From a virus (Duplodnaviria > Heunggongvirae > Uroviricota > Caudoviricetes): 64,000 bases of DNA. The number at the start of each line of letters is the position of its first letter. The first letter of the stretch is position 1. Position numbers and translations under genes: made by a program. The notes beneath the pieces are model-generated. The model searched no databases. It was not told the DNA's origin and saw nothing but the letters and a program-made list of their open reading frames with translations. Below are positions 1,522-52,995 of this stretch, one piece after another. The DNA lies in IMG/VR virus record IMGVR_UViG_3300028886_000031, positions 216,485-280,484 of that record. One strand, 5' to 3'.

Positions 1522-1543
1522 ATTAAAAGGATCTTTTATCAAT

Positions 1544-28124: not shown

Positions 28125-28128
28125 TTTA

Positions 28129-38435: not shown

Positions 38436-39182
38436 TTGAAAGTTGTCATGAGTTGTTTTAATAAAAAGATTAAAAAACTTGTATCCAAAGATATCGTTAC
38501 AGAAGAAAAATGTATTTGTTCTGATAAATTGAAAGCCAAGGAATATGTTAAAAACTTAAATATCAAAGTTGTAAATATTCCAAAGGTTATAGATATCCTA
38601 GGAAAAGAAATAGTTCCAGAGAAAATAGATTTTACAAAATATAATTATCCTATGATGCTTAAATGTAATCATGGATGTAAATTCAATGTTCTATGCAGAA
38701 CAATTAAAAATGTAAATAAAAAAAATATAAAATATCTCAACAACTGTATAAAAATGAATTTCTCTAAAGTTAATGGAGAATTCCAATATTATAATATAGA
38801 TAGAAAAATATTTATAGAAGAATTTCTACCAATAGAGATGACAATTAAATTTCATTGTTTTCATGGTAATCCAATGTTTGTAGAAATTTTTAAAATGTCT
38901 TTTCTAAAACCAATTTGCTGTAACGAATATGATATAAATTTTAATAAATTCGAATTTACAAATGCTTTTAAAAGATATGATTTAACACCAAGAGTTCCAA
39001 GTTATCCTAAGTTGGTGGAAGATACAAAAAAACTATGTCAAAATTTCGATTATGTTAGAGTAGATTACTATATAGATGTATTGAAGAAAATTTGGTTTAG
39101 CGAATTCACTTTTAGTCCAGCAGCTGGAAATTTACATTTTATAAATCGTAAAATGGATCAATATTTTGGAAGTTTAATATGA
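38436..39182 (+). CDS. TupA-like ATP-grasp protein (capsule/teichuronic-acid-locus family)
   Basis: PMMLKCNHGCKFNVLC, EFQYYNIDRKIFIEEFL and IKFHCFHGNPMFVEI parallel the ATPgrasp_TupA blocks (fVlKpnHGsG, EwqYk..p.i.vEe.L, DyKffcFnG.p.f). Confidence 0.45.
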   Translation: MKVVMSCFNKKIKKLVSKDIVTEEKCICSDKLKAKEYVKNLNIKVVNIPKVIDILGKEIVPEKIDFTKYNYPMMLKCNHGCKFNVLCRTIKNVNKKNIKYLNNCIKMNFSKVNGEFQYYNIDRKIFIEEFLPIEMTIKFHCFHGNPMFVEIFKMSFLKPICCNEYDINFNKFEFTNAFKRYDLTPRVPSYPKLVEDTKKLCQNFDYVRVDYYIDVLKKIWFSEFTFSPAAGNLHFINRKMDQYFGSLI

Positions 39183-39856
39183 CGTTGACAAAAGAAGATA
39201 TTTTAAAACATGCTTTTGTTATTTCTATTAGTAATAAAAGATTGAGAACATTCTATGAGAGAATGAATAGTATTGGCTTTAATAACATTCAGCATGTAAT
39301 TGGTTCACAATATTCGGACGATAAAGTTAAGAATATTAATATTACAACAATAAATATTATAAAATATGCTATTAAAAACAATTATAGTAAAATAACAATA
39401 TTTGAAGATGATGCTTTTCCAGTTAAGGATTTTAATAATAGATTTCTAGAAGTTATACAGAATATCCCGGATGATGCTAGATGCTTAGCATTAGGATACA
39501 ATGCTGTAAATAGCATATTTAATAAAAATAAAGATAAAAAATACGATCTTTTAAATCAAGAAGAACTTAAAAATAAAATATTTGTTAATAGAAAATATAT
39601 TAAATCATTCTGGGGTGGTCATAGCTATATTATGTTCAAAAAAGATTATTGGAGATATATAAATCTATTATCAAAATATACTCCAGACAATTCTAAATAT
39701 GAAGTAGATAAATGTATATGGATGAGAAATAATTATTTCTATACTATAAGAATTCCATTATTTGTACAAAAAAATTTTGATGACATACATAATGTTCATA
39801 AATCAGAAGGAAACAAATGTGCTGATATGATTAATAAAGAATATAATATTCTCTAG
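39179..39856 (+). CDS. glycosyltransferase family 25-like (LPS/LOS-type)
   Basis: N-terminal AFVISISNKRLRTFYERMNSIGFNNIQHVIGSQ plus TIFEDDAFP match the GT25 signature. It is a paralog of 42714-43523. Confidence 0.5.
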   Translation: MTLTKEDILKHAFVISISNKRLRTFYERMNSIGFNNIQHVIGSQYSDDKVKNINITTINIIKYAIKNNYSKITIFEDDAFPVKDFNNRFLEVIQNIPDDARCLALGYNAVNSIFNKNKDKKYDLLNQEELKNKIFVNRKYIKSFWGGHSYIMFKKDYWRYINLLSKYTPDNSKYEVDKCIWMRNNYFYTIRIPLFVQKNFDDIHNVHKSEGNKCADMINKEYNIL

Positions 39857-40166
39857 TTTCAATTTCATTTGGAGTTATATAAGAAATATCTCCAGAATAT
39901 AAAATTTCAGTTAGAATAACTTTCTGTGCTTCTGTATAGTCCTCTGGAACCACAGGTCTAGAATATGTATTAGTACCATCTTCTAATTGATAGTATTTTT
40001 TTAAGTCCATAATTACATTTTCATTAGTATTTGTTATATTATTAGCAAATGTATATATGTTCTCGTTTGAATTATCTATTTGCCAATATAATATATCACA
40101 GAAACAGATCATATAAAATAGAATACAAGTTATAAACAATAGAATTTTTTTCATAAACTTCTCCAT
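39831..40166 (-). CDS. hypothetical secreted/TM protein (111 aa)
   Basis: N-terminal hydrophobic segment ILLFITCILFYMICFC. Confidence 0.45.
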   Translation of the reverse strand: MEKFMKKILLFITCILFYMICFCDILYWQIDNSNENIYTFANNITNTNENVIMDLKKYYQLEDGTNTYSRPVVPEDYTEAQKVILTEILYSGDISYITPNEIETREYYILY

Positions 40167-40227
40167 TTGGTAATTAATGAACCATTGTTTATTAAGGCTG
40201 ACATGTAATAATTCTATAATCTAACGA

Positions 40228-40980
40228 TTATATCTTTTCTCCCCATAAAACACAGATCTTATTGTGTTTACTTAAGAATTTCTTTTGATCTTCTGTTAGC
40301 TCATTATAATAAGGATGTTTTTTGATGTTATCTATATTAACTCTTTTAATAATTCTATATTTAACATTCCATGGAGTTTCAACAATATCACCTTCGTAAT
40401 ATCTATCATAATCATTAGAAACTCTTGTAGTAACAAACTTATTCTTTTTAGATAATTCTTCTATTTCATTTTTAGGAAATTCTATCATCTTTACTTTCTG
40501 TTTAACTATAGAATTTGCCAAATATTCACAGAATGATTCTTCTTCCATTTTGTTTGGTCTAACATGATCTAAATATACAGTATGGAAAGCTTCTTTTCTA
40601 ACTTTTACTTTAATTAATCTTTTAAACCATTTATCACAAATATTATTATAAACTTCATGAGCTAGTTCGTGTGCTATAATAATCTTATTGAATACATCTT
40701 TTGAATCTTTTATTTTGTAAAAATCCATTACATCTTCTATATTGGGATTAATTTGAATGTATTTTAACTTTGTCCAAGATCCACCAGATTCTTCTTGTTT
40801 TAATTCATGACATTGTTTTCCATTATTGTAAATTGGTTGAGAATTTATCTTTAATTTCATGTAAGATAAGTCAAAATTGTATACTTGTTTGTAAGCATTA
40901 ATACAATATCTAAAATTCTTTTTAATGAGATCGATATTAGAGTTATTTATAGATTCCATTAAAAAAGAGTATTGTTTCAT
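40228..40980 (-). CDS. CTS-tagged internal-protein candidate with HExxH metallopeptidase motif
   Basis: The true N-terminus is probably the internal MKQYSFLMESINN. It contains IIAHELAHEVYNN (HExxH). Confidence 0.55.
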   Translation of the reverse strand: MKQYSFLMESINNSNIDLIKKNFRYCINAYKQVYNFDLSYMKLKINSQPIYNNGKQCHELKQEESGGSWTKLKYIQINPNIEDVMDFYKIKDSKDVFNKIIIAHELAHEVYNNICDKWFKRLIKVKVRKEAFHTVYLDHVRPNKMEEESFCEYLANSIVKQKVKMIEFPKNEIEELSKKNKFVTTRVSNDYDRYYEGDIVETPWNVKYRIIKRVNIDNIKKHPYYNELTEDQKKFLSKHNKICVLWGEKI

Positions 40981-41306
40981 AACCATTCCTTTAATGATTT
41001 GATTGCACATTTAACATCATTTTCTGTACAATCACGAGATAAAGGACCATTTCTATGTCCTAATAAACCAAATTGTGAAGCACTACTTTGTGCCTTATCT
41101 GGATAAAATGTAAATCCACATCTATGTTTTGTTGGTTCACCTCTATATACAATAATGTATGTTTCTCCTCTAGCATTGTGTTCTGATATATGAACATCCT
41201 TATGGTTAGATATAATATTTTTAATTTCAGAAACACCTTTATCATAAATTGGAAATTCTGATTCTTGTGATGTTACAGATTCTAAAAGGAAAGAGTATTG
41301 TTTCAT
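40977..41306 (-). CDS. CTS-tagged internal-protein candidate (109 aa)
   Basis: N-terminus MKQYSFLLESV. Confidence 0.55.
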   Translation of the reverse strand: MKQYSFLLESVTSQESEFPIYDKGVSEIKNIISNHKDVHISEHNARGETYIIVYRGEPTKHRCGFTFYPDKAQSSASQFGLLGHRNGPLSRDCTENDVKCAIKSLKEWL

Positions 41307-42097
41307 ACATTTTTACCCCATTTTTCACTCATTATCTTTTTATAATTCTCTTCATTGGAACATCCATATAACTCTTTACACTTTTTATCACTTATCTTTT
41401 TCATCTTCGGAGTCATTAATTCCCAATTTTTTCTAACCCTTATCTGTTCTTCTATAGATGGTTCTGGATGTACTAATTCTATTCCTGTTCTTGCACGCCA
41501 TTTATGAACTTTTACTCCAGTAGAATCCTTATCATTTATTTTAAATATATCAGGACCATATGAACCAAGCATTTTTATAATAGTTTCTTTAGGATATTTT
41601 TCTAATATTTGATTTATACAATATGGTGGATCATATTTATTTGATATCCATTCCCATTCATAACTAAAATCCTTGAATTTTTCAAAACCAGTATCAATCA
41701 TTTTAGTTAATTCTTTCGTTTTATCTGGTATTTTGAATATTAATCCAATATATTGGACTTTAACTGGTTTTAAAATCCATACTTCATTTGTACCATCTAT
41801 ATTAAAAACTTGTTTTTTAGATGGTTTATATATGGATTCTGGATCTACATTAATTGCTTTGTGTACATAATATACATTAGATCTATATGGAGGAGCACCA
41901 TGTAAAGCTCTTGATATTGATGTAGAGAAACAAATTCTTTTTGTCACATGATCTTCATCTTTATGATATAAAGATTTTGGAACTCTTGGTGTTAAAATTT
42001 TATTATTTAAATTTTCATAACTCAAATGATAAAGTGTACTTTTTCCATCATTATATTTATAAAATAGATCTTCTGTTAAAAATGAATAATGTTTCAT
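41303..42097 (-). CDS. CTS-tagged internal-protein candidate (264 aa)
   Basis: N-terminus MKHYSFLTEDL. Confidence 0.55.
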   Translation of the reverse strand: MKHYSFLTEDLFYKYNDGKSTLYHLSYENLNNKILTPRVPKSLYHKDEDHVTKRICFSTSISRALHGAPPYRSNVYYVHKAINVDPESIYKPSKKQVFNIDGTNEVWILKPVKVQYIGLIFKIPDKTKELTKMIDTGFEKFKDFSYEWEWISNKYDPPYCINQILEKYPKETIIKMLGSYGPDIFKINDKDSTGVKVHKWRARTGIELVHPEPSIEEQIRVRKNWELMTPKMKKISDKKCKELYGCSNEENYKKIMSEKWGKNV

Positions 42098-42717
42098 TAT
42101 TTATCCTTCTTCCATTCTGTACATTTTATTAAAAACTTTACAGAGATCTTATCAACTTTAAATGGTTTTACATTATCTTTAATGACAAATTCCCAAGGTA
42201 TATCATTATCTTGAAAAGCCTTATCTCTATACTTATTATAATCTATATAATAAACATATCCTGTAAATGTTCTTACGAAATCTTTAAATAGAATTTGTTT
42301 TTTATTTGTGTCAAACATAAAAATATCCACTATACTCTTTTGTGGATATGTTGTTTGCATTTTCTTTTTAAATTCTGGATTATGAACTTTTTCACGTAAT
42401 TTTTGTCTCATTCCATTAGTCTTGAATCCCCAGATAAATTTATCTAACTTAATCTTTTTAAGTTCTGGATATTCTTTTATAATTTCATTATATAGAATCT
42501 TACTATCAAAAATAAAATGTGCTGCTGACCATTTAAAAGGAGTTACAAATACACAATCATAACCAAGTCTTCTATCATGAGTTCTACTTCCTTTGATAAG
42601 TTTCATATTTCCATTCTGACTGCCATGATAAACAGTATTATTAAGAATATAAGATTCCTTATCTTGAGTAATACTCAATTGATTTAAAGACTCTGTTAAA
42701 AATGAATAGTGTTTCAT
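42097..42717 (-). CDS. CTS-tagged internal-protein candidate (206 aa)
   Basis: N-terminus MKHYSFLTESL. Confidence 0.55.
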   Translation of the reverse strand: MKHYSFLTESLNQLSITQDKESYILNNTVYHGSQNGNMKLIKGSRTHDRRLGYDCVFVTPFKWSAAHFIFDSKILYNEIIKEYPELKKIKLDKFIWGFKTNGMRQKLREKVHNPEFKKKMQTTYPQKSIVDIFMFDTNKKQILFKDFVRTFTGYVYYIDYNKYRDKAFQDNDIPWEFVIKDNVKPFKVDKISVKFLIKCTEWKKDK

Positions 42718-43523
42718 AATTTTGATGTATTTATCAATATTGGATCCATAAAAGTTTTATGATTTATTTTATCGAATTGTAATTCATGGTTGAATTCTGG
42801 GAACTTTTTAAATATGGAATTATATAACATATCTATATTCTTTATATGATGAATATGACTTGTTCCAAACCGTCCTGTTTTAAACCATTTTGTTCCATCT
42901 TTCATAAAATCATTTTTAATATAAAAGAATTTCTTTTTATTTATATCAAGCTGTGCAAAATAAGATTCTTTTGTATAATAAATATTTTTACATGATGATA
43001 AAGTAATATCAATAAATATAGGAGCTATTTTTTTCATATATCTCATGTTATTATATGGATATATATGCTTCCTGTTTTTCATTATATCACATACTTCATT
43101 ATAGCAATCTGATGTAATGAGATAAGCCTGTGAACCACCTAATCTTATATAATTATCAGAATAGATACAGCCGCACTCATTATCATGTATTAATGTTTTA
43201 GGATCAAAACCAATCTTTACATACCCAAAAGATAACACTCCTTTAAAATTTTTATTAGATAATATATCTAATGTATTATATAATCCACTTAGGTCATTAC
43301 ATGGCCAAGCATCATCTTCATACATTATAAAATAATCTAATTTATTAGGAATTGCATATCTTTTTATAAAATCATATATATTTTGCGAAAGACCTTTTGC
43401 TGCATATAATATTTTCGGGACCGGAATACCACTCTGTGTAAATACAGTTTTTAAAACATTATATTTATAAGCATTTCTTGTTAAAACAAAAGAATTCTTT
43501 CCTAAACTAAACATATTTAACAA
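42714..43523 (-). CDS. glycosyltransferase family 25-like (paralog of 39179-39856), no CTS
   Basis: SFVLTRNAYKYNVLKTVFTQSGIPVPKILYAAKG and FIMYEDDAWP parallel the 39179-39856 motifs. Confidence 0.45.
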   Translation of the reverse strand: MLNMFSLGKNSFVLTRNAYKYNVLKTVFTQSGIPVPKILYAAKGLSQNIYDFIKRYAIPNKLDYFIMYEDDAWPCNDLSGLYNTLDILSNKNFKGVLSFGYVKIGFDPKTLIHDNECGCIYSDNYIRLGGSQAYLITSDCYNEVCDIMKNRKHIYPYNNMRYMKKIAPIFIDITLSSCKNIYYTKESYFAQLDINKKKFFYIKNDFMKDGTKWFKTGRFGTSHIHHIKNIDMLYNSIFKKFPEFNHELQFDKINHKTFMDPILINTSKL

Positions 43524-43534
43524 TCTTTCTAATT

Positions 43535-43915
43535 TTACACTACATGTCTTCGTTTAATACTATTAACAACATGCTTCACATAATCCGGTGCAAAACATTT
43601 AACCCATCTTTCCTTATCGATATATCCGCACCAAGCATCCAAGCACATTAAATGCGAAACATGCTCTTTAAACACTTTAATAATTTCTTTTAAGAATTCT
43701 TTCTTTGAGTCAGGTAAATTTTTGAAAGAATCTGATCTTGTATAATTATTCTCTAAATAATCAATAGCGTTTCTAATATCTCCTGTACAATCATCTTCGC
43801 TATTAGAATTCTTAATATCATTAGCAACTTTTGCAAATGGAATCATTTCACAATCTTCTTCTGTACAAAAATTAGAGAATGAACTAGATTCTGTTATAAA
43901 TGAATATTGTTTCAT
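43535..43915 (-). CDS. CTS-tagged internal-protein candidate (126 aa)
   Basis: N-terminus MKQYSFITESS. Confidence 0.55.
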   Translation of the reverse strand: MKQYSFITESSSFSNFCTEEDCEMIPFAKVANDIKNSNSEDDCTGDIRNAIDYLENNYTRSDSFKNLPDSKKEFLKEIIKVFKEHVSHLMCLDAWCGYIDKERWVKCFAPDYVKHVVNSIKRRHVV

Positions 43916-43916
43916 A

Positions 43917-44153
43917 TTACTTATTTTCCTTTAAAAAATTTCTATATGATTCTGAAATATCTATCCAACTTGTTCCACTTCTACCAAAATATTGGTTAGA
44001 ATCAGATTTTAGAACAATATATCCAATATTATCCTTGAAATTTGAGGATTCTATCAGTTTATCAAATTCGTCCCAATCTTTAATAGCTCTAAAGAATTCT
44101 GGAGCACCATTTAGATCTTTAAGAGTATATGCCTTATTACTTTCCATTTTCAA
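43917..44153 (-). CDS. hypothetical protein (78 aa), no CTS
   Basis: ORF track. It sits between CTS genes. Confidence 0.45.
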   Translation of the reverse strand: MKMESNKAYTLKDLNGAPEFFRAIKDWDEFDKLIESSNFKDNIGYIVLKSDSNQYFGRSGTSWIDISESYRNFLKENK

Positions 44154-44544
44154 TCTCCTTATTCAACTTAACAATCATCTTATGCATCCAATCAAAATCA
44201 ATATCTTTCCAAGTTTTGCCGGATGGTATTGTTAAATTTCTTTCTATTGGTTTAATGTAATGTTGTACTTCTTTTTCATCACCATGTAAATATGGATTAT
44301 CTTCTGGTGTTTTATACATGTAGAATTTTACATTTAAAGTGTTACCGTTAATACGAATAGAAATTTCTGCTCTATTATGACCTTTTGTTTTGGTGTATGA
44401 ACAATAAGTTTCACCACCATCTCCACCAGAAGAACATTTCCAACCTTTAATGCTTCCTAATGCTTTATCTACAATATCAGTAGTAATTGGAAAATCACCA
44501 AACCAAAGTTTTTCTGATTCCGTTAAAAATGAGTAATATTTCAT
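44137..44544 (-). CDS. CTS-tagged internal-protein candidate (135 aa)
   Basis: N-terminus MKYYSFLTESE. Confidence 0.55.
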   Translation of the reverse strand: MKYYSFLTESEKLWFGDFPITTDIVDKALGSIKGWKCSSGGDGGETYCSYTKTKGHNRAEISIRINGNTLNVKFYMYKTPEDNPYLHGDEKEVQHYIKPIERNLTIPSGKTWKDIDFDWMHKMIVKLNKEIENGK

Positions 44545-44915: not shown

Positions 44916-44948
44916 AGCTTTCAATCTATAATATAATTTTATAGTATT

Positions 44949-45695: not shown

Positions 45696-45739
45696 AATTT
45701 AGAAACTTTATTAATTTTAATTTATTTTAAAAAATTAAA

Positions 45740-46378: not shown

Positions 46379-47082
46379 CAACATTGCCAATAACATTCAG
46401 TACGCATAACAGAACAGAATATGCAACAACATGTCTTAAAAAATTAATAGAAAATTTGAAATTTGATGGAGATATTTATCTTTATATATGTGACGATAGA
46501 TCCACAAAAGAACACATTAATTCATTAATAGAAACATTAAGAACATGTAATTTTTCAAATTATGAAATAATATCTTGTACAGAAGAACATTATGGTTATG
46601 GATATGTTTTAAATACAGCTTTAGATAAAGCATATTCTTATAGTGACGTAGCATTAACAATGGAAGATGATTGGCTTCTCCAAACTAAAACAGATTTTAA
46701 TATACCAGTTAATATGTTACTTAATAACAGTGATAAATATGCTGGAATTAGATTATGTGTAAAAGAAATAGATGGATTAATTCATAACAATTTACCAAAT
46801 AATTTTTTTATGTTTAAAAATGTTCCGAGATTATATTTTGCACATTATGTTTTTCAATGTATGCTAAGACATAAAAAAATATTTGAAAAAATAAGATTCC
46901 TAGAAAATACATTTCCACAACGTGCAGAGTTAGATTTAAAAGACAAATATAAAAAAATAGTTTTAAAACCTAAATTAAATCATTTATTAATGTTAAATTA
47001 TATTCTTCCCGATGGATCTCCTATATTTAAACATATAGGAAAAATTTCGACAATGCCAGGCAATAGAAATAATTATAGATAA
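46375..47082 (+). CDS. glycosyltransferase family 2-like
   Basis: PITFSTHNRTEY...LYICDDRSTKEH resembles the GT2 N-terminal pattern (xxIPxYN....DDGSTD). Confidence 0.45.
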   Translation: MTTLPITFSTHNRTEYATTCLKKLIENLKFDGDIYLYICDDRSTKEHINSLIETLRTCNFSNYEIISCTEEHYGYGYVLNTALDKAYSYSDVALTMEDDWLLQTKTDFNIPVNMLLNNSDKYAGIRLCVKEIDGLIHNNLPNNFFMFKNVPRLYFAHYVFQCMLRHKKIFEKIRFLENTFPQRAELDLKDKYKKIVLKPKLNHLLMLNYILPDGSPIFKHIGKISTMPGNRNNYR

Positions 47083-47101
47083 CAAATTAAAATTTGAACT
47101 T

Positions 47102-48778
47102 ATGAAAATAGCTGTAATTACTCATTTTAATTATAATTCTAATTATGGACAGAGATTACAAAATATATCTCTTGTTACATATCTTAAAAATATTTATCAA
47201 ACAGAAGATATATATACATTTGCATATGATATTCGCGGCTATAAATTAGAAAAAATAAGACATACGGATATAGAAGATAAATATCTAAAATTAATACAAT
47301 TAGATTTTAAAGATCCAAATACATTTATTAATTATGATTTATATGTATTTGGAAGTGATCAAGTTTTTGCATATGCGAAATGGATGTCACAAAATATTAA
47401 AGATATGTTTTATGGAAATTTATTTATAAGATATGGATTTAAACATTTTATATCATATTCATCATCTGCTAATTCACATTTAGATAATTATAAGAAATAT
47501 GTATGCAGTAATTTTAAATATATTTCATTTAGAGAAAAAAATGATGTATTAAAATATAATATTCCAAATAGTATTTATAATATAGATCCTGTATTTTTAC
47601 AGTCTAAAGAATTCTGGGAAAGTTTAGAAAAGAAACCGAATTTTATTAATGAAAATGAAATATTTGATTTTGAATATTCTATAGGAAGAAAAGATTTTGA
47701 GATTACAAAAAAAGATGGTATAAAATACATACATATTTATTTTAATAATTATATTAAATCTAATTGGGTTGGTTATGGTGAATTCCTTTGGTTGATACAT
47801 CATTGCAGAAAATTAATAACATCTAGTTTTCATGGTTTTGCATTTGGTATCATATATCAAAAACCATATATAGAATTTAAACATAATTATAGAATAGATG
47901 ATTTAATAGAAATTTTAAATATAAAATTTGATAATAATGTTATTAATTATGACGAAATACAAGAGAATATTAAAAAAGAACAAGAACGTTCAAAAGAATA
48001 CTTTTTGAAATCTTCTGTTTTTAATTATTGTTGTTACTCTAAAGATAAATATATACATGATAATTCTACATCTGGTGGAGTTTGCCCAGAATTGGCTAAA
48101 TATGTTTTTAATAACAATGGTATTGTTTATGCTGCTAGATATAATAATGATTTTACAAAAGTAATAATAGATTCTGTGGATAATTTGGAAGATTATTTTA
48201 AATATTTTGTTAAATCAAAATATAATTTTAGTTATATGCCTAAATTATCAATTATTAAAGAACAATTAGAAAATGGAAAATTAATTCTGTATATTGGTAG
48301 TCCATGTCAAATTCTAGCATTAAAAACATATCTTAAAAAAGATTATGATAATTTAATACTTGTAGATTTTGAATGCCGAGGTTTTTCTACATCTAAAAAA
48401 TTAGAAAATTTTACCAAAAATATAGAATCGAAATATGGATCTAAAATTAAAAATATTGATTTTAGACCAGATCATAGAGTTGATGGAGTATTAGTTGAAT
48501 TAAATGATGGTAGAACTATTAAATACAAAGTCTCTGTATTTAGAGACTTTGTATTTAGAAGTTTAGAAAAATGCCAAGAATGTAAATTTGATCATGGAAC
48601 AATATCTTATTCAGATATTACTGTAAGTGATTTTTGGTCTAATTCTAAAAATAAATGGAAGCTCGGCAAAGAATTTACACCAGAAAATGGATGTAATCAT
48701 GTAAGAACAAATACATTAAAAGGTTTTATTTTCTTTAATAAAATCAAAGATAAGATATTCTACAAACAATTAAAATAA
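47102..48778 (+). CDS. polysaccharide pyruvyl transferase-like protein (558 aa, two-domain)
   Basis: N-terminal MKIAVITHFNYNSNYGQRLQNISL resembles the PS_pyruv_trans N-terminus. The C-terminal half has a CxxGF/Cys-containing domain. Confidence 0.4.
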   Translation: MKIAVITHFNYNSNYGQRLQNISLVTYLKNIYQTEDIYTFAYDIRGYKLEKIRHTDIEDKYLKLIQLDFKDPNTFINYDLYVFGSDQVFAYAKWMSQNIKDMFYGNLFIRYGFKHFISYSSSANSHLDNYKKYVCSNFKYISFREKNDVLKYNIPNSIYNIDPVFLQSKEFWESLEKKPNFINENEIFDFEYSIGRKDFEITKKDGIKYIHIYFNNYIKSNWVGYGEFLWLIHHCRKLITSSFHGFAFGIIYQKPYIEFKHNYRIDDLIEILNIKFDNNVINYDEIQENIKKEQERSKEYFLKSSVFNYCCYSKDKYIHDNSTSGGVCPELAKYVFNNNGIVYAARYNNDFTKVIIDSVDNLEDYFKYFVKSKYNFSYMPKLSIIKEQLENGKLILYIGSPCQILALKTYLKKDYDNLILVDFECRGFSTSKKLENFTKNIESKYGSKIKNIDFRPDHRVDGVLVELNDGRTIKYKVSVFRDFVFRSLEKCQECKFDHGTISYSDITVSDFWSNSKNKWKLGKEFTPENGCNHVRTNTLKGFIFFNKIKDKIFYKQLK

Positions 48779-48846
48779 ACAAGATTTGCCATTAGTGATG
48801 GACATAATGAAAACGACTAAATCTAATTAAAATCAACTATGCTCCA

Positions 48847-50652
48847 CTATTGCATTTCATATAAACATTCTAATAATTTATCATTATTATCTTTAGAATT
48901 TATTGCTAATCTTATAAACTCGGAATTAGAAAAACCTTTTTTATGAGAACAATCTTTTATAAGAAATGATTTTTTCCATAATCTTTTTAATAATGATTTT
49001 ACATTAAAAGGTTTATTTACTCTACATAAAACATAATTTCCTTCTGATGGGAAAACAGTTAAGAACTTAATTTTAGAAAGTTCATTAATAAACCTATAGC
49101 GTTCATATATAAGTTTTTTACAACTTATTTTATATTCACTATCATATCTATCTAAAATTTGAAGGAAAAATTCACCTATAGAATTAATATTCCATATAGA
49201 AAGATGTTTTTTTATTGTGGATATTATCTCTTTATTACCGCTTGCTATAAATCCTAATCGTACTCCTGGGATACCATAACTCTTAGATATAGATTTTATA
49301 ATACTGACGTGTTTATTAGCATACAAAAAAACATTATTTAATAATGTATAATTATCAATAGCAAAATCCATAAAAGATTCATCTATTAAAATAGATATAT
49401 TATTATTTTTAGCCCATATTACAAGTTTAAAAATATCTTTTTTAGATATAAAATTTCCAGATGGATTATCTGGATTTATTAGAATAATAGAAGATAATGA
49501 CTTATTATTAAAATATTGTATAATATCATCTACTGTATATCTAAATCCATTAGATTGTGGGGCGTTAAATACAATTTTACGATCGTCACTAATTCTGTTA
49601 GAATATTCTTCAAATGTAGGATATATAAAGCCAACTTTACCTTTGCTATTATTCATCCATATATTAATTATTTCAGATGCGCCATTTCCAACAGCAACAA
49701 ATTCATTTTTTAAATTAAAAATTTTAGATACTAATAAAGAGTTAATGTTTTGACCAGATGGATATTTTCTAATAAGATCATCTAGAGAATTTTTAACTTC
49801 CAAAATCATTTTCTCTGATGGATAATATGGATTAACGAGATACGTATAATCTTTAATATTTGGATATCTCCAATAGCCACCATAACGTTCTGATATTTTT
49901 TTAATTTGTGTATCTGGTTTACAAAATATAGATTCCGCAATATTTAAGTCTTGTATATCATCGATTTCATACCATTTCTCATCATTTAATGGCAATGCTT
50001 TAATTAACTTTTTATCTATAGACGTAATTATTTTTAAAACTTGTTCATAATATTCATTATTACTAATAGACTTAATATATACATCTAAAAATGGTACAAG
50101 ATTATTTTTAGAAAATTCTTTAGAAAATTTATATATATTTACAGTTTTATAATAAGAATCTAAATAATTATAATCAAATTTTGTTTTATCTATAAAATTT
50201 ATAATATTATAATCGTTATCCATTTGAATACAAGTACCATCCATCCAGTTCTGATACTTATCTACAACGGCAACATTTTCATATTTAGATTGAATAAGAT
50301 TTGTAATTATACTATCTTGAAAAATAATATCACTTTCCAATAAAATTGTATCATCTTTAATTAATTCATCAGAAGCTATTTTTAAGGAATATATATTATT
50401 TGTTTTGTGATAATCTAAATTTGAAATATATTGTATTGGAATATTGTTCCATTTATTACCTAGATATTTTTCAAGATTTTCTTTTTTATATCCATCTACT
50501 ATTATTATCTTATCTAGGTTAATTTTGGACAATTGATTTAGCATTCTATCTATTAATCTAACGCCATTAATTTTTACCATACATTTTGTATTATTTTTGG
50601 TAAAATTCTTTAAGCGTTTTCCCATTCCAGCTGCTAATATTAATGCTTGCAT
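48847..50652 (-). CDS. bifunctional sugar-phosphate nucleotidyltransferase / class I-II PLP aminotransferase-fold fusion
   Basis: N-terminal MQALILAAGMGKRL is the nucleotidyltransferase signature. C-terminal AVGNGASEIINIW...KSISKSYGIPGVRLGF is aminotransferase/CobD-like. Confidence 0.5.
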   Translation of the reverse strand: MQALILAAGMGKRLKNFTKNNTKCMVKINGVRLIDRMLNQLSKINLDKIIIVDGYKKENLEKYLGNKWNNIPIQYISNLDYHKTNNIYSLKIASDELIKDDTILLESDIIFQDSIITNLIQSKYENVAVVDKYQNWMDGTCIQMDNDYNIINFIDKTKFDYNYLDSYYKTVNIYKFSKEFSKNNLVPFLDVYIKSISNNEYYEQVLKIITSIDKKLIKALPLNDEKWYEIDDIQDLNIAESIFCKPDTQIKKISERYGGYWRYPNIKDYTYLVNPYYPSEKMILEVKNSLDDLIRKYPSGQNINSLLVSKIFNLKNEFVAVGNGASEIINIWMNNSKGKVGFIYPTFEEYSNRISDDRKIVFNAPQSNGFRYTVDDIIQYFNNKSLSSIILINPDNPSGNFISKKDIFKLVIWAKNNNISILIDESFMDFAIDNYTLLNNVFLYANKHVSIIKSISKSYGIPGVRLGFIASGNKEIISTIKKHLSIWNINSIGEFFLQILDRYDSEYKISCKKLIYERYRFINELSKIKFLTVFPSEGNYVLCRVNKPFNVKSLLKRLWKKSFLIKDCSHKKGFSNSEFIRLAINSKDNNDKLLECLYEMQ

Positions 50653-50697
50653 TTATATCACCTGTATATATTTCTGATGATTTAGCCCATGAAATAT

Positions 50698-51846
50698 TTA
50701 TATTATATAATCTTTATATTCTTCTTGACCCAATATCAAATTAATAATATTATCTGTTGGAGTTTTTCCATTTGGATATTTTTTACAGTATTTTTCTATG
50801 TGTTCTTTTCTAATATCACGCTTTATATCATTTCCATCTATAACATTTTGAACGAATGTTCTTAAACTATCGTTCGGACCACATAATTCATGACTGTTAA
50901 TAGCATCTTTGCATATTTCTGTATGATTAGTTTTTAAGATATTCATAGACAAATCATTTGTCATATAACAAACTGGTTTATCCATATAAAGATATTCACA
51001 TTTAAATGATCCACAATCATGAATCATTGCATCTGAATATCTGAAATATGGAACATAATTTTCGGAACAATCTATAGTGAATAATTCAGCTAAATAATCT
51101 AACTTATTAAATATATCTTTTACAATATTCATTGGCAAAAATTTATATATTCTATTTGTTAGTCTACACCAACTATAATATAATAAAGGATGTGGTCTTA
51201 TTATAAAATCAACTTCTGAGTTAAATTCTTTTAATGAACAAATATCTTTATATCTGTTTAAAAAGTCACTCTTGTCGACTTTGTTACTACGGCCTAATGT
51301 CCAATGAGGACAAATCAATATACGCTTTTTTGTACTTGGTTCTAGTGCATATTCATCTTTCCAAGGATCTTCAAGATGTTCTTTGGGAATATTAAGGACT
51401 TCTTCGAAAGGATTTCCTGTTTCTACTATATGATTAGGTTTTTGATTATAATCTCCTTTTCTACATATACCAATTAAACAATCCTTAAACATCTTATAGT
51501 AAGAGCTATCTGTATCAAAAGCATATGGAACAAATAGAAATTTTCTATTCTTAAGAATAGTATTCATTGTAGAAATATCACAATATCTTTCTTTATGAGG
51601 ATCCGATGGAATTATCAAATCAAAATCATTATAATTATCTATTGTAATATCATATATAGATTTTGTTTCTATAACATTAAAACGCTTATGTTTCTTTAAC
51701 TTTTCAACTAATGGCTCAATTTTAGATTTGAGTTTATCATAAACAAATTGTGTTCCATCTACCTTCGTATTTCCTTTATATCTAATTACACAAACATTGA
51801 TTTTATCTTTAGAACGAATATTGTCTAATATTTCAGATCTTGTCAT
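50698..51846 (-). CDS. CDP-alcohol/glycerophosphotransferase-like (TagB/TagF family?) protein
   Basis: ILICPHWTLG resembles the IL(Y/F)APTWR motif of Glyphos_transf. The start was moved to the internal Met MTRSEILD, which has RBS TGAGGTA 8 nt upstream and avoids an 83-nt overlap. Confidence 0.4.
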   Translation of the reverse strand: MTRSEILDNIRSKDKINVCVIRYKGNTKVDGTQFVYDKLKSKIEPLVEKLKKHKRFNVIETKSIYDITIDNYNDFDLIIPSDPHKERYCDISTMNTILKNRKFLFVPYAFDTDSSYYKMFKDCLIGICRKGDYNQKPNHIVETGNPFEEVLNIPKEHLEDPWKDEYALEPSTKKRILICPHWTLGRSNKVDKSDFLNRYKDICSLKEFNSEVDFIIRPHPLLYYSWCRLTNRIYKFLPMNIVKDIFNKLDYLAELFTIDCSENYVPYFRYSDAMIHDCGSFKCEYLYMDKPVCYMTNDLSMNILKTNHTEICKDAINSHELCGPNDSLRTFVQNVIDGNDIKRDIRKEHIEKYCKKYPNGKTPTDNIINLILGQEEYKDYII

Positions 51847-51862
51847 TTTAAGTACCTCATTT

Positions 51863-52681
51863 TTAACATCTATTAAAGAGTTTATTACATAAATTATGTA
51901 ATTCGTTATGAACATCTGATCCATTGCCAAATATTTCATGTTCAAAATTTTGAATTAATAATGGCTGTATATATTTTATTGTTTGTTTATTAATAATTTT
52001 AACAATGGCAGTTCTTCCATCTATTTTTCCTACATATTTAACTGGTATTCCCATAGCAATACAAGGTAAATATATATGCAATCTAGATGTATATACAATC
52101 TTAGCATTCTCTTTGAGATATTTCAAACGATTATATGCTACACTTTCCATTTCTAATTCTGTTCTATTATGGTGATGAACTAATTGAGTTAAAGAAACAG
52201 AATTTTTTTCTGAATGTGATTTTACAAAATTATTTCCACAATCAATAAAAATAATCTTATCATTTTTCTGATTGATATTTGAAAAATCTAATAAATTAGC
52301 CATTAATGATGGACATAATGAAACATACGAATTCGGACATTGATCCTTAAATAATTCATACGTTTTAAAGTCTCGACAACCAAATCTTTTATTAGTTCTA
52401 AGATCTTTTATTTTATTAGAGCAATGAAATCCTATATAATTATATACATCTTTCTTATTATTCCAAAATTTTGTATTTGAAGTTTCTACAGTTGAAAAAA
52501 ATCCACTCATAATCATTACATCGTTGTCTTTAAAATCAAAACGATCTATTTTATCTCTTCTTACATAATTAGAGTCTATATTATGTTTTTTTATAAAATT
52601 ACGAAGGCATAATATATAAATGAAATCACCTAAATTATGATGACGATACCTGTAATTAGTACATGAAATTGTATATATCAT
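51863..52681 (-). CDS. polysaccharide pyruvyl transferase-like protein
   Basis: YTSRLHIYLPCIAMGIPVKYVG resembles the PS_pyruv_trans C-terminal block (TSRLHAaI.Al..G.P). Confidence 0.4.
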   Translation of the reverse strand: MIYTISCTNYRYRHHNLGDFIYILCLRNFIKKHNIDSNYVRRDKIDRFDFKDNDVMIMSGFFSTVETSNTKFWNNKKDVYNYIGFHCSNKIKDLRTNKRFGCRDFKTYELFKDQCPNSYVSLCPSLMANLLDFSNINQKNDKIIFIDCGNNFVKSHSEKNSVSLTQLVHHHNRTELEMESVAYNRLKYLKENAKIVYTSRLHIYLPCIAMGIPVKYVGKIDGRTAIVKIINKQTIKYIQPLLIQNFEHEIFGNGSDVHNELHNLCNKLFNRC

Positions 52682-52995
52682 AAATCGATCTTCTTAATTA
52701 ATTCACAAAGTCTGTTGTAAACATTATCTTCTTTATATCTCAGACATTCGTTATTGTTATATTTAATACTCAATACACATTGTTTATCATGTTCATTTAA
52801 TGTACATTCTCTAGGTTTTCCGTTTACAACCTCATAACAATGTGGATCATCACATAACAAACTTCTCAAGTGTGCTTGGTTGTTTCCACACAAACCATAC
52901 ACATCTCCTAATCCAATCCACTTTAGAACTTGTCTAATTTCTTTGAGAAGTTCTACATCTTTTTTATTAAAACTTTTCTTTTTAAACCAAAACAT
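52678..52995 (-). CDS. hypothetical Cys-containing protein (105 aa)
   Basis: ORF track. Confidence 0.45.
   Translation of the reverse strand: MFWFKKKSFNKKDVELLKEIRQVLKWIGLGDVYGLCGNNQAHLRSLLCDDPHCYEVVNGKPRECTLNEHDKQCVLSIKYNNNECLRYKEDNVYNRLCELIKKIDL

What the first reader, a model, noticed from the sequence alone, without database searches (positions are those of the whole stretch)
38436..52995. Extensive glycan-modification gene set, interrupted by the CTS island: possible DNA or virion glycosylation
Modules include:
- a TupA-like ATP-grasp;
- two GT25 (LOS/LPS-type) paralogs;
- GT2;
- two pyruvyl-transferase-like proteins;
- a TagF-like phosphotransferase;
- a nucleotidyltransferase fused to a PLP aminotransferase-fold domain, which implies synthesis of an unusual NDP-activated amino or alcohol donor;
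- GT32 and GT11 fucosyltransferase-like genes at 883-2266.

For a lytic T4-like phage this many glycosyltransferases is unusual. T-even relatives use glycosyltransferases to hypermodify hmC DNA (glucose, arabinose), and the window also begins inside a QueC gene (7-deazaguanine pathway). Alternatives are capsid or tail glycosylation, or host surface remodelling to block superinfection.
Basis: inference. Interest (0 to 1): 0.55.

Follow-up and report, generated by a model that had tools for sequence, protein, structure and literature searches.

The report
Swappable glycan-decoration cassette in jumbo phage
A 321-kb phage from the rumen carries about sixteen sugar-chemistry genes, including a five-gene block that a near-identical sister phage lacks. 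The sister phage has a different gene pair doing the equivalent job, so related phages seem to build differently decorated glycans, on a target that is still unknown.

Summary
The gene set is real, and larger than reported. Pfam, NCBIfam and a structure model confirm these genes:
- a TupA-like ATP-grasp;
- two pyruvyl-transferase-like genes, one fused to an FrhB-type redox domain;
- a LicC-type nucleotidyltransferase fused to a CobD/HisC-type PLP domain;
- a TagF-like phosphotransferase;
- GT32 and GT11.

The two 'GT25' genes and the 'GT2' gene are only weakly supported.

The window belongs to a circular 321,653-bp jumbo phage with a T4-type prohead protease. The 'CTS island' is a run of seven capsid-targeted internal proteins.

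The main new result comes from a sister phage that is about 92% identical. It lacks window 46377-52687 exactly (five genes). Elsewhere it carries a TagF-like + TagD-like pair that our phage lacks. So the two phages hold alternative 'CDP-alcohol synthase + phosphotransferase' modules.

Bacterial homologs of the fusion enzyme occur in at least 589 species. In the seven loci I annotated they sit in polysaccharide or other envelope-glycan loci, next to LicD or TagF-like transferases.

I found no hydroxymethylase, TET or C5-methyltransferase gene in the roughly 104 kb examined. DNA glycosylation is therefore unsupported, but not excluded: Bacillus phage SP-15 is a precedent.

The chemistry is well supported. 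The acceptor is inferred: host envelope glycan is slightly favoured over the virion.

The parts
38448..39182 (+). TupA-like ATP-grasp, a putative amide ligase acting on a sugar or acid carboxylate. It is 97.6% identical in the sister phage.
   Evidence: Pfam PF14305 E 6e-19. Conservation in the sister phage. The exact 244-aa product is in the protein collection.
39179..39856 (+). Putative GT-A glycosyltransferase, weakly GT25-like. Conserved in the sister phage.
   Evidence: PF01755 E 0.0019, 18.5 bits, below the 24-bit cut-off. 93.8% identical in the sister phage.
39831..40166 (-). Small protein with an N-terminal hydrophobic segment. Function unknown.
   Evidence: Hydropathy scan. No significant family hit.
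40228..44915 (-). Hypervariable island of seven internal head proteins carrying an N-terminal capsid-targeting sequence, MK[QHY]YSF[LI].E. This is the 'CTS island'. It is not part of the glycan pathway.
   Evidence: Motif scan: seven ORFs here, none elsewhere in the window. Prohead protease S77 is present. The island's content differs in the sister phage.
42714..43514 (-). Near-orphan gene inside the island, without a capsid-targeting sequence. Possibly a divergent GT25-like glycosyltransferase. Absent from the sister phage.
44949..45695 (-). Conserved Cys-rich protein of unknown function.
   Evidence: No Pfam, NCBIfam or PHROG hit. 90% identical in the sister phage.
45740..46378 (+). DNA/RNA non-specific endonuclease with a hydrophobic N-terminus. 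Its stop codon overlaps the start of the first cassette gene.
   Evidence: PF01223 E 9e-39. Sequence read.
46377..52687 (.). 6.3-kb five-gene accessory cassette. It is present here and absent from the otherwise collinear sister phage (about 92% identical), where about 12 bp take its place.
   Evidence: blastn of the window against L103 and junction sequences. The same gene order appears in two independent assemblies. GC is 23.5%.
46375..47082 (+). Putative GT-A (GT2-like) glycosyltransferase with an EDD motif. A 41%-identical reading frame sits directly upstream of the TagF-like gene in another large phage contig (L098), where it was not called as a gene.
   Evidence: TIGR04440 E 1.6e-4, weak. 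tblastn to L098.
47102..48778 (+). Polysaccharide pyruvyl transferase fused to an FrhB/FdhB-type flavin/Fe-S redox domain. A 58%-identical paralog lies outside the window, and an ortholog of that paralog is in the sister phage.
   Evidence: PF04230 5e-17, PF04432 2.7e-14, PF04422 2e-4. Paralog and ortholog.
48847..50652 (-). Bifunctional enzyme: an N-terminal LicC/PntC-type cytidylyltransferase and a C-terminal CobD/HisC-type PLP domain. Predicted CDP-amino-alcohol synthase.
   Evidence: It keeps every column that is invariant across the 24-sequence family alignment, including the SISKSYG lysine.
50698..51846 (-). TagF-like CDP-alcohol phosphotransferase.
   Evidence: PF04464 above cut-off. 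Invariant His and Asp motifs are kept. AlphaFold pLDDT 81.5. Foldseek top hit TagF, then TarL and Bcs3.
51863..52681 (-). Pyruvyl-transferase-like protein, matching the C-terminal half of the family profile.
   Evidence: PF04230 E 4e-7, 30.6 bits against a 25.3-bit cut-off.
52678..52995 (-). Small Cys-rich protein. It is conserved in the sister phage, where it directly follows the nuclease, so it is not part of the cassette.
883..2266 (+). GT32 (883-1521) and GT11 fucosyltransferase-like (1544-2266) pair. It lies downstream of Gat-QueC and about 12 kb downstream of the phage's Gmd and Fcl-like genes.
7086..7790 (-). T4 gp21-type prohead protease (Peptidase_S77). This is the enzyme expected to cleave the capsid-targeting sequences.

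Best explanation
**What the stretch is.** It is part of a dispersed, modular glycan-building toolkit of an uncultured 321-kb rumen jumbo phage with T4-type head maturation.

**Step 1 (inferred from domains and nearest solved relatives).** The fusion enzyme at 48847-50652 uses its PLP domain to make a phosphorylated amino-alcohol from a central metabolite.
- The most likely product is phosphoethanolamine, by decarboxylating O-phospho-L-serine.
- The alternative is serinol phosphate, by transaminating DHAP.
- Its LicC-like domain then condenses the product with CTP to give a CDP-amino-alcohol.

**Step 2 (inferred from family, fold and gene neighbourhood).** The TagF-like enzyme at 50698-51846 transfers the phospho-amino-alcohol onto a sugar hydroxyl.

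**Step 3 (inferred).**
- The pyruvyl-transferase/FrhB fusion and the second pyruvyl-transferase-like protein add a pyruvate-derived substituent. This would be a ketal or, if the redox domain reduces an enolpyruvyl ether, a carboxyethyl ether.
- The GT2-like protein adds a sugar.
- The conserved ATP-grasp forms an amide on a carboxylate.

**Step 4 (shown by comparison).** The donor and transferase pair is a swappable module.
- The sister phage lacks this cassette.
- It carries instead a TagF-like + TagD-like (CDP-glycerol) pair that this phage lacks.
- Related phages should therefore make products that differ in their phospho-alcohol decoration.

**Step 5 (least certain).**
- All enzymes are soluble, and there is no flippase, polymerase or initiating phosphoglycosyltransferase. 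They must therefore act in the cytoplasm on a pre-existing sugar acceptor.
- I favour the host's lipid-linked envelope polysaccharide or teichoic-acid precursors, which the host would then export. This would change the infected cell's surface, for example to block superinfection or re-adsorption of progeny.
- I put this choice of acceptor at about 0.4 on its own, the virion at about 0.3 and DNA at about 0.12. The remainder covers targets not considered here and the possibility that the cassette does nothing for the phage.
For: **Domain and family assignments:**

**The fusion enzyme**
- Its best solved relatives are the Ser-P/Thr-P-decarboxylase-like 6oux (7e-38) and CobD 1lc5. Bona fide HisC proteins score lower.
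- Its N-terminal domain matches LicC 1jyk and the PntC domain of Tde1415 (6pd1). Both activate 2-aminoethyl-type head groups.
- It retains every column that is invariant in the 24-sequence family alignment.

**Bacterial homologs**
- There are more than 8000 of them, in at least 589 GTDB species.
- In the seven bacterial loci I annotated, they sit in polysaccharide or other envelope-glycan loci. A flippase or Wzy-type polymerase is visible in three of the seven.
  - In four loci a LicD phosphotransferase is adjacent or one gene away. In three of those four, an OCD/mu-crystallin gene lies between.
  - In three loci a homolog of the phage's TagF-like gene lies within a few kb: L073, L019 and L018.
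  - L073 reads fusion | Octopine_DH | TagF-like | Wzx.

**TagF-like membership:**

**Module swap**
- Window against L103.
- L107 against L099.
- The TagF-like gene is paired with a TagD-like cytidylyltransferase in two other large phage contigs.

**Other points**
- No multi-pass membrane protein is encoded in the window.
- A LicC-like plus TagF-like pair that adds a phospho-amino compound to a glycan has a precedent in C. difficile CD0242/CD0244 (PMC10714395).
- A TupA-like ATP-grasp that amidates GlcA with ethanolamine-P or serinol-P has a precedent in Cj1438 (PMC11800379).
- The cassette is not an assembly chimera. It appears in two independent assemblies and has phage-like GC.
Against: - No enzyme activity, substrate or product has been tested.
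- Sequence cannot separate decarboxylase from aminotransferase: HisC and CobD profiles score alike, and both fall below their cut-offs.
- Nothing in the data identifies the acceptor.
- Host-surface remodelling is documented mainly for temperate phages (my knowledge), and no integrase was seen here.
- The host is unknown, so it is unknown whether it has teichoic acids, LOS or capsule.
- The ATP-grasp is conserved in the sister phage, which lacks the fusion enzyme. Its amine donor therefore cannot depend on that enzyme.
- Three of the putative glycosyltransferases are weakly supported.
- The FrhB 'reductase' role is speculation.
Confidence: 0.5

Rival explanations
1. Virion glycosylation. The toolkit builds a glycan on capsid, decoration or tail proteins in the cytoplasm, as chloroviruses, mimiviruses and some mycobacteriophages do. 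The glycan would be fucosylated, pyruvylated and decorated with a phospho-alcohol. Swapping the donor module would then change the virion's surface 'serotype'.
For: - All enzymes are soluble and no export machinery is encoded.
- The phage makes its own nucleotide sugar: Gmd passes its equivalog cut-off, and the Fcl-like gene scores 1.6e-104. It also has two GT11 genes.
- The LicC-like + TagF-like pair of C. difficile acts on a protein-linked GlcNAc in the cytoplasm (PMC10714395).
- The best viral structural neighbours of the TagF-like model include giant-virus proteins: a Hokovirus cytidylyltransferase fusion and WcaK-like pyruvyl transferases.
- The second glycan locus lies about 3.6 kb from a gp10-like baseplate gene.
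- The toolkit is retained but diversified between sister phages.
Against: - No protein-initiating O- or N-glycosyltransferase has been identified.
- No structural gene adjoins the cassette in the window.
- No tailed-phage virion is known to carry teichoic-acid-like or pyruvylated glycans (my knowledge).
- Homologs of the fusion enzyme in the bacterial loci annotated here sit in polysaccharide loci, not protein-glycosylation loci.
Confidence: 0.3
2. DNA hypermodification. The glycosyltransferases and the TagF-like enzyme decorate a modified base in phage DNA with sugars and a phosphodiester-linked group, protecting it from host nucleases.
For: - Phage DNA glycosyltransferases include GT-A-fold enzymes, and the glycans can be complex, with nucleotide-sugar genes in the same cluster (bioRxiv 10.1101/2023.12.21.572611).
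- Bacillus phage SP-15 carries a TagF-like gene within a 10-gene host-like carbohydrate cluster. That cluster is proposed to build glucuronolactone-1-phosphate and glucose on its DHPU base (PMC5977210).
- The SP-15 protein is a structural neighbour of the TagF-like model (rank 7).
- The genome carries a Gat-QueC fusion, so it does modify its DNA in some way.
Against: - No ThyA-like hydroxymethylase, 5mYOX/TET, C5-methyltransferase or hmdU kinase was found in about 104 kb examined. Known pathways are usually clustered with such genes.
- No glycosylated 7-deazaguanine is known to me.
- An ordinary dTMP kinase is encoded.
- GT11, GT32 and pyruvyl transferases are sugar-on-sugar enzymes with no known DNA role.
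- The role of the SP-15 cluster is itself only proposed.
Confidence: 0.12
3. Passenger cargo. The cassette is recently acquired bacterial DNA with no adaptive role for the phage.
For: - It is an indel between sister phages.
- The fusion enzyme is of bacterial descent, and no record in the cultured-phage collection holds a full-length homolog.
Against: - All five ORFs are intact.
- The fusion enzyme keeps every invariant residue of its family, and so does the TagF-like protein.
- GC is fully adjusted to the phage: 22.7% for the fusion gene, against about 30-63% for bacterial homologs.
- The same enzyme types recur in three other large phage contigs.
- The sister phage holds a functionally equivalent pair.
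Confidence: 0.05

Closest known systems
C. difficile flagellin type A glycan genes CD0242 (LicC-like cytidylyltransferase) and CD0244 (TagF-like phosphotransferase) (PMC10714395)
   Same: A LicC-type cytidylyltransferase makes a CDP-activated small amino compound. A TagF-like enzyme then transfers it, as a phosphodiester, onto a sugar. All steps are cytoplasmic.
   Different: - There the head group is phosphothreonine, made by a separate enzyme. Here a PLP domain is fused to the cytidylyltransferase.
- There the acceptor is flagellin-linked GlcNAc. Here the acceptor is unknown.
- The activities in that system are themselves a model built from mutants.
TagD/TagF wall-teichoic-acid enzymes and TagF-like capsule polymerases (TagF 3l7j, TarL 8va1, Bcs3 8a0c)
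   Same: - Same Pfam family and fold for the transferase.
- The sister phage pairs it with a TagD-like enzyme.
- A GT2+TagF-like fusion with capsule-polymerase architecture lies just outside the window.
   Different: - The donor-making enzyme here is not TagD but a LicC-like/PLP fusion.
- Sequence identity to TagF is about 14%.
- Whether it polymerises or adds a single group is unknown.
Campylobacter jejuni HS:2 capsule glucuronamide pathway: Cj1438 TupA-like ATP-grasp (PMC11800379), with the companion PLP enzymes Cj1436 and Cj1437
   Same: A TupA-like ATP-grasp occurs together with CobD/HisC-type PLP enzymes that, as I recall, make ethanolamine-P or serinol-P (Cj1436/Cj1437 roles are from my knowledge, not read here). 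In that system the amine is ligated to a uronic acid.
   Different: - Here the PLP domain is fused to a cytidylyltransferase, which points to phosphodiester transfer rather than amide transfer.
- The ATP-grasp is kept in the sister phage that lacks the PLP enzyme.
- I did not compare sequences with Cj1436, Cj1437 or Cj1438 directly.
Bacillus phage SP-15 carbohydrate cluster, genes 146-155 (PMC5977210)
   Same: A jumbo myophage carries host-like teichoic/teichuronic-type genes, including a TagF-like enzyme and glycosyltransferases.
   Different: - SP-15 has an hmdU synthase and a chemically defined hypermodified base. Neither is seen here.
- There is no sequence-level similarity: tblastn of the TagF-like protein finds nothing in 50,697 phage records.
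Treponema denticola Tde1415 (PntC-AEPT fusion, PDB 6pd1)
   Same: A LicC-like cytidylyltransferase is fused to a PLP enzyme that makes its 2-aminoethyl substrate.
   Different: - The PLP domain there is class V, an aminoethylphosphonate transaminase. Here it is class I/II, CobD/HisC-like.
- Only the N-terminal domains match.
Giant-virus, cyanophage and mycobacteriophage glycan gene sets (chlorovirus Gmd/GMER and capsid glycans; cyanophage P-SSM2 'LPS' cluster; mycobacteriophage virion glycosylation). These comparisons are from my own knowledge.
   Same: Lytic viruses that encode nucleotide-sugar synthesis plus many soluble glycosyltransferases and no export genes.
   Different: - To my knowledge none combines a CDP-amino-alcohol synthase, a TagF-like transferase and a pyruvyl-transferase/FrhB fusion.
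- The target is proven for chloroviruses and mycobacteriophages but not here.

Membership tests
TagF-like CDP-alcohol phosphotransferases (Pfam PF04464 Glyphos_transf) | Match to the family profile above the curated cut-off | tested here: met
   24.9 bits against a 22.1-bit cut-off, E 1.2e-5. Most homologs carry PF04464.
TagF-like CDP-alcohol phosphotransferases (Pfam PF04464 Glyphos_transf) | Two-Rossmann GT-B-type fold closest to TagF/TarL | tested here: met
   AlphaFold pLDDT 81.5, pTM 0.86. Foldseek top hit TagF 3l7j, E 2.9e-8; also TarL 8va1 and Bcs3 8a0c. GT-B epimerases score about as well.
TagF-like CDP-alcohol phosphotransferases (Pfam PF04464 Glyphos_transf) | Conserved catalytic histidines and the SD..HD..S motif | tested here: inconclusive
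   H181, P218-H219 and S271-D272...H276-D277...S280 are invariant in 40 homologs and present in the phage protein. I did not map them residue by residue onto TagF H444/H584.
TagF-like CDP-alcohol phosphotransferases (Pfam PF04464 Glyphos_transf) | Genomic pairing with a cytidylyltransferase that makes the CDP-alcohol donor | tested here: met
   It is adjacent to the LicC-like fusion gene here. It is adjacent to a TagD-like gene in L098 and L099. In three bacterial loci the homolog lies within a few kb of the fusion gene.
LicC/PntC-type cytidylyltransferase fused to a CobD/HisC-type PLP enzyme | N-terminal NTP_transferase domain with the G-x-G-x-R-L motif; C-terminal class I/II PLP fold with the Schiff-base lysine | tested here: met
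   PF00483 1.6e-11 and PF00155 1e-25. LAAGMGKRL is read in the sequence. K457 in SISKSYG is invariant in the family. LicC 1jyk and 6pd1 match the N-terminus.
LicC/PntC-type cytidylyltransferase fused to a CobD/HisC-type PLP enzyme | Reaction type of the PLP domain: phospho-amino-acid decarboxylase or aminotransferase | tested here: inconclusive
   HisC profile 154.6 bits against CobD profile 145.4 bits, both far below their cut-offs. The PDB ranking favours decarboxylase-like 6oux over CobD over true HisC.
Polysaccharide pyruvyl transferases (PF04230) | Profile match above the cut-off | tested here: met
   47102-48778: 63.1 bits. 51863-52681: 30.6 bits. The cut-off is 25.3 bits.
Glycosyltransferase family 25 | Profile match above the cut-off | tested here: not met
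   39179-39856 scores 18.5 bits, below 24. 42714-43514 has no hit even at E <= 1. They are best called GT-A-like candidates.
T4-type hmC DNA glucosylation | dCMP hydroxymethylase (ThyA-like) plus a GT-B alpha/beta-glucosyltransferase | tested here: inconclusive
   Neither was found in about 104 kb. The remaining 217 kb or so was not readable.
Phage 5mYOX/ThyS-linked DNA glycan gene clusters (bioRxiv 10.1101/2023.12.21.572611) | A glycosyltransferase adjacent to a C5-methyltransferase, 5mYOX or ThyS homolog | tested here: not met
   No such neighbour lies within the window or its flanks (same calls).
Temperate-phage seroconversion modules (Gtr, Oac, Wzy-type) | Membrane-embedded modifying enzymes, in a temperate phage | tested here: not met
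   No multi-pass membrane protein is encoded in the window. No integrase family was hit in the window.
T4-type internal head proteins (the 'CTS island') | An N-terminal targeting peptide of about 10 residues ending in (L/I)-x-E, together with a gp21-type prohead protease | tested here: met
   Seven ORFs carry MK.YSF[LI].E. Peptidase_S77 lies at 7086-7790. Cleavage and packaging cannot be tested here.

The most novel reading that the evidence does not exclude
The phage uses this toolkit on itself. It would coat its virion, or less probably its DNA, with a teichoic-acid-like, fucosylated and pyruvylated glycan. Sister phages would then switch the phospho-alcohol decoration (glycerol phosphate versus an amino-alcohol phosphate) by swapping a two-gene donor/transferase module. 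That would amount to phage 'serotype switching', driven by antibody, lectin or host-defence pressure in the rumen.
Probability: 0.35. Interest if true: 0.8.

Novelty: new variant of a known kind. Interest (0 to 1): 0.5.

Why it matters
Clusters of 'cell-envelope' genes in large lytic phages have been noted for two decades without a demonstrated role.

**A natural comparison.** Two phages about 92% identical differ cleanly in which CDP-alcohol synthase + TagF-like pair they carry, while they share the rest of the toolkit. If either phage or its host were cultured, or the enzymes were expressed, comparing their products would show what the toolkit decorates and why it diversifies.

**A possibly uncharacterised bacterial enzyme family.**
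- The LicC-like/PLP fusion occurs in at least 589 bacterial species, many of them from gut or rumen metagenomes.
- In the loci annotated here it always sits near a LicD or TagF-like transferase, and often next to an opine-type dehydrogenase.
- I found no paper on it in the library searched.
- It probably installs phospho-amino-alcohol groups on capsules of Bacteroidales and other gut bacteria, which are major determinants of phage and immune recognition.

Tried and rejected
**Searches that found nothing**
- Megablast of 14.5 kb and 18 kb of the window against 50,697 phage records: no hit.
- Single-protein scans of IMG/VR with the fusion enzyme, the pyruvyl-transferase fusion and NAMPT: nothing.
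- An alignment-based scan found five viral contigs that share only the fusion gene.
- tblastn of the TagF-like protein against cultured phages: nothing.
- The pyruvyl-transferase fusion matched only unannotated fecal 'Bacteriophage sp.' contigs.
- PHROGs: no family for any glycan gene.
- Literature searches for the fusion enzyme, CDP-ethanolamine with LicD, or carboxyethylamino phosphate groups returned nothing relevant.

**Analyses that were uninformative**
- Structure of the orphan GT-like gene from a single sequence: pLDDT 38, unusable, so no fold search was run. It has too few homologs to build an alignment.
- The sigma-70 promoter scan matched at the rate of shuffled sequence. The T4 late-promoter motif TATAAATA lay upstream of only one gene. 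Expression timing could therefore not be inferred.
- No repeats mark the cassette ends. The only oddity is a short relic of a pyruvyl-transferase-like ORF.

**Ideas rejected**
- I considered that the ATP-grasp uses the fusion enzyme's amine product, as in C. jejuni. I rejected this as a requirement, because the ATP-grasp is conserved in the sister phage that lacks the fusion enzyme.
- I considered an assembly chimera. I rejected it because the cassette appears in two independent assemblies and has phage-like GC.

**Limits**
- Walking the contig beyond about 20 kb on either side was not possible within the look-up limits.
- The host could not be identified.

Full report
**1. What the window is**

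The window is AT-rich: 28.6% GC overall and about 23.5% across the glycan genes. It has no nucleotide-level relative among 50,697 deposited phage genomes.

Exact-protein look-ups place it on a 321,653-bp contig, ena:ERZ27256887:k141_2997416. Genes from the two ends of the window map to contig positions near 20 kb and near 280 kb, in the same orientation. The window therefore runs across the contig ends, which indicates a circular or circularly permuted complete genome.

Phage identity rests on these features:
- a Peptidase_S77 (T4 gp21-type) prohead protease at 7086-7790;
- PHROG matches for an exonuclease, phosphoesterases and others;
- nine tRNA genes;
- homing-endonuclease domains;
- a large majority of small ORFs with no family.

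NrdD and NrdG just upstream point to an anaerobic host. A sister contig comes from the cattle-rumen project PRJEB21624. I could not identify the host.

**2. Checking the observation**

- TupA-like ATP-grasp (6e-19);
- two PS_pyruv_trans proteins (5e-17 and 4e-7);
- NTP_transferase + Aminotran_1_2 fusion;
- Glyphos_transf, i.e. TagF-like (24.9 bits against a 22.1-bit cut-off);
- GT32, GT11 and the QueC C-terminus.

I tested the TagF-like assignment further.
- An alignment of 40 homologs shows invariant His and Asp motifs that the phage protein keeps.
- An AlphaFold model built on that alignment is confident (pLDDT 81.5, pTM 0.86).
- Its best PDB match is the teichoic-acid polymerase TagF. TarL and the capsule polymerase Bcs3 are also listed, alongside generic GT-B epimerases.

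Three assignments are weak.
- The first 'GT25' gene is below threshold, 18.5 against 24 bits.
- The second 'GT25' gene (42714-43514):
  - has no family hit at all;
  - is nearly an orphan even in an exhaustive HMMER search of 1.8 billion proteins;
  - resembles the first only over a 38-residue EDDA motif;
  - gave an unusable single-sequence model.
- The 'GT2' gene rests on a hit at 1.6e-4.

The larger pyruvyl transferase is fused to an FrhB/FdhB-type redox domain. A non-specific nuclease also sits in the middle of the region.

**3. The 'CTS island'**

Seven ORFs in 40228-44915(-) begin with MK[QHY]YSF[LI].E, and no other ORF in the window does. Together with the gp21-type protease, this is the T4 pattern of internal head proteins, whose N-terminal capsid-targeting peptide is cleaved after (L/I)-x-E (established T4 biology). 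The island is unrelated to glycan chemistry. The orphan GT-like gene inside it has no targeting peptide.

**4. The decisive comparison**

A sister phage (143-kb contig; loci L099 and L103) is collinear with window 35951-61854 at about 92% nucleotide identity. It differs from our phage as follows.

- **(a) The five-gene cassette is missing.** Window 46377-52687 is absent from the sister phage. This stretch holds exactly the five genes GT2-like, pyruvyl-transferase/FrhB, LicC-like/PLP fusion, TagF-like and pyruvyl-transferase-like. In the sister phage the nuclease stop codon is followed, about 12 bp later, by the homolog of 52678-52995.
- **(b) The internal-protein island has different content.** It lacks the orphan GT-like gene and holds capsid-targeted GNAT and NUDIX proteins instead.
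- **(c) Several genes are conserved.** The ATP-grasp, the first GT-like gene, the unknown 248-aa gene, the nuclease and the GT11 gene at 1544-2266 are at least 90% identical at the protein level.

Downstream of the window, both phages share a second glycan locus: GT11, a GT2+Glyphos_transf fusion of 775 aa, GT32, a 230-aa protein, and a second pyruvyl-transferase/FrhB gene. There the sister phage has a further 1.44-kb pair, a TagF-like gene (38% identical to ours) plus a TagD-like cytidylyltransferase. Our phage lacks this pair precisely.

In the regions compared, each phage therefore has one stand-alone 'cytidylyltransferase + TagF-like transferase' pair, of different kinds and at different loci. 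A third, more distant large phage contig (L098) also pairs the TagF-like gene with a TagD-like gene. A 41%-identical match to our GT2-like protein lies just upstream there, although it was not called as a gene.

The cassette is not an assembly artefact.
- It appears with the same gene order in two independent assemblies.
- Its GC equals that of the neighbouring phage genes, whereas bacterial homologs of the fusion gene have about 30-63% GC.

**5. Where the enzymes come from**

The fusion enzyme belongs to a very conserved bacterial family.
- Mean column identity over 24 sequences is 81%, and the phage copy keeps every invariant residue.
- The family has more than 8000 homologs. The best non-self match is 61% identical.
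- It occurs in at least 589 GTDB species, many of them from gut and rumen samples: Bacteroidales, Akkermansia, Fibrobacter, Clostridia.

In the bacterial loci I annotated, the gene sits in polysaccharide or other envelope-glycan loci. A flippase or Wzy-type polymerase is visible in three of the seven.
- In four loci a LicD phosphotransferase is adjacent or one gene away. In three of those four, an OCD/mu-crystallin gene lies between.
- In three loci a homolog of the phage's TagF-like gene lies within a few kb. In L073 an octopine-dehydrogenase gene lies between them and a Wzx gene follows.

Two unrelated opine-type dehydrogenase families recur next to the fusion gene. This suggests that its product carries a free primary amine, which some bacteria modify further (inference).

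No deposited phage record holds a full-length homolog of the fusion enzyme. The TagF-like protein has no tblastn match in the phage collection.

**6. Mechanism**

The N-terminal domain's nearest solved relatives are LicC (CTP:phosphocholine) and the PntC domain of Tde1415 (CTP:2-aminoethylphosphonate). The C-terminal domain's nearest are a Ser-P/Thr-P-decarboxylase-like enzyme (6oux) and CobD, ahead of true HisC proteins.

The simplest reading is phosphoserine → phosphoethanolamine → CDP-ethanolamine. This needs only central metabolites and no kinase. Serinol phosphate made from DHAP is the alternative. Sequence profiles cannot separate the two.

The TagF-like enzyme would then transfer the phospho-amino-alcohol to a sugar. 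The same logic has been proposed for C. difficile CD0242/CD0244 (PMC10714395).

The pyruvyl transferases would add pyruvate-derived groups. A reductive role for the fused FrhB domain, giving a carboxyethyl ether, is my speculation.

The ATP-grasp probably forms an amide on a carboxylate, as Cj1438 does (PMC11800379). Its amine donor cannot depend on the fusion enzyme, because the sister phage keeps the ATP-grasp without it.

The phage also encodes Gmd (above its equivalog cut-off), an Fcl-like GDP-fucose synthase and two GT11 genes, so it can make and transfer fucose.

**7. The acceptor**

No multi-pass membrane protein is encoded in the window. The Pfam families hitting the called genes of the flanking regions include no flippase, polymerase or initiating phosphoglycosyltransferase. 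All of the chemistry is therefore cytoplasmic and needs a pre-existing sugar acceptor. Three candidates remain.

- **Host lipid-linked envelope precursors.** This is favoured by the ancestry of every enzyme.
- **Virion proteins.** This is favoured by the phage's own nucleotide-sugar supply, the lack of export genes, the protein-glycan precedent in C. difficile, and giant-virus structural neighbours.
- **DNA.**
  - For: GT-A-fold DNA glycosyltransferases exist, and SP-15 carries a TagF-like gene in the cluster proposed for its phospho-sugar base.
  - Against: about 104 kb examined contains no hydroxymethylase, TET or C5-methyltransferase gene. The visible DNA-modification gene is Gat-QueC.

I rank them host envelope about 0.4, virion about 0.3 and DNA about 0.12.

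**8. Novelty and verdict**

Phage-borne envelope-glycan genes are a known kind. Three things are new here:
- the particular chemistry: a CDP-amino-alcohol synthase fusion + TagF-like + pyruvyl-transferase/FrhB, none with a full-length match in a deposited phage genome;
- the clean reciprocal module swap between near-identical jumbo phages;
- the link to a widespread bacterial enzyme family on which I found no literature.

I rate this a new variant of a known kind, of moderate interest. The main open question is the acceptor.

Noticed in passing
window 40228-44915 (-); L103 3659-9176: A hypervariable island of capsid-targeted internal proteins. The sister phage's version includes two GNAT acetyltransferases and a NUDIX hydrolase that carry the same N-terminal targeting peptide, so these enzymes are presumably packaged and injected. 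The window ORF 40228-40980 carries an HELAHE (HExxH) metalloprotease-like motif.
   Followed up: partly
window 1-179; L015 8017-9303; L015 3915-7584: The QueC at the window start belongs to a 428-aa GATase-QueC fusion of the 7-deazaguanine DNA-modification pathway. Just upstream lie NrdD and its activase NrdG, separated by a LAGLIDADG homing-endonuclease ORF.
   Followed up: partly
L106 6284-7285 and 9011-9979 (about 10-14 kb upstream of the window start): The phage encodes Gmd (GDP-mannose 4,6-dehydratase, above its equivalog cut-off) and an Fcl-like GDP-L-fucose synthase. Together they form a complete GDP-fucose branch that matches the two GT11 genes. A dTMP kinase lies next to them.
   Followed up: yes
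L107 11432-17020 (about 9-14 kb past the window end): A second glycan locus: a GT2+Glyphos_transf fusion of 775 aa (capsule-polymerase-like architecture), GT32, a 230-aa protein and a second pyruvyl-transferase/FrhB gene. It is followed by rubrerythrin-like and cysteine-desulfurase genes and a 1406-aa gp10-like baseplate protein.
   Followed up: partly
window 48779-48846 (-): The intergenic stretch between the convergent genes 47102-48778 and 48847-50652 holds a short relic reading frame, SFSLCPSLMANLVYF. It matches residues about 118-133 of the pyruvyl-transferase-like gene 51863-52681 (77% over 52 nt). It is probably a trace of past recombination within the cassette.
   Followed up: partly
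L003, L009, L073 (bacterial loci): In bacteria the LicC-like/PLP fusion gene is repeatedly followed by an opine-type dehydrogenase (OCD_Mu_crystall or, alternatively, Octopine_DH) and then a LicD or TagF-like transferase. This hints at a possibly uncharacterised pathway for N-substituted phospho-amino-alcohol groups on gut bacterial polysaccharides.
   Followed up: partly
window 24569-32915 and 53476-53549: Nine tRNA genes: a cluster of eight, plus tRNA-Gln at the right edge of the glycan region. Interspersed are three metallophosphoesterase-family genes (24958-25905, 28575-29201, 29194-30018; at least the first and third match phrog_547) and a PP-loop (TilS-like) gene at 30662-31309. A HAD_SAK_2 gene (34352-34828) and a YqeY gene (34809-35264) lie just past the cluster. 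Together they suggest a tRNA or RNA repair and modification module.
   Followed up: no
window 54696-57149: A NUDIX + NAMPT pair (NAD salvage, as in KVP40-like phages). It is 96-99% identical in the sister phage.
   Followed up: no
window 35277-36293: A 338-aa protein with a weak PHROG 'transposase' match, in a locally GC-richer stretch (about 36%). At least the part covered by L103 is 96% identical in the sister phage.
   Followed up: no
window 38183-38227 (+): A strong 19-bp-stem hairpin followed by a T run, directly upstream of the ATP-grasp gene. It probably marks a transcription-unit boundary.
   Followed up: no
window 45740-46378: A non-specific nuclease with a hydrophobic, signal-like N-terminus. 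Its stop codon overlaps the start of the first cassette gene (ATGA), so in this phage the cassette is probably co-transcribed with it.
   Followed up: partly
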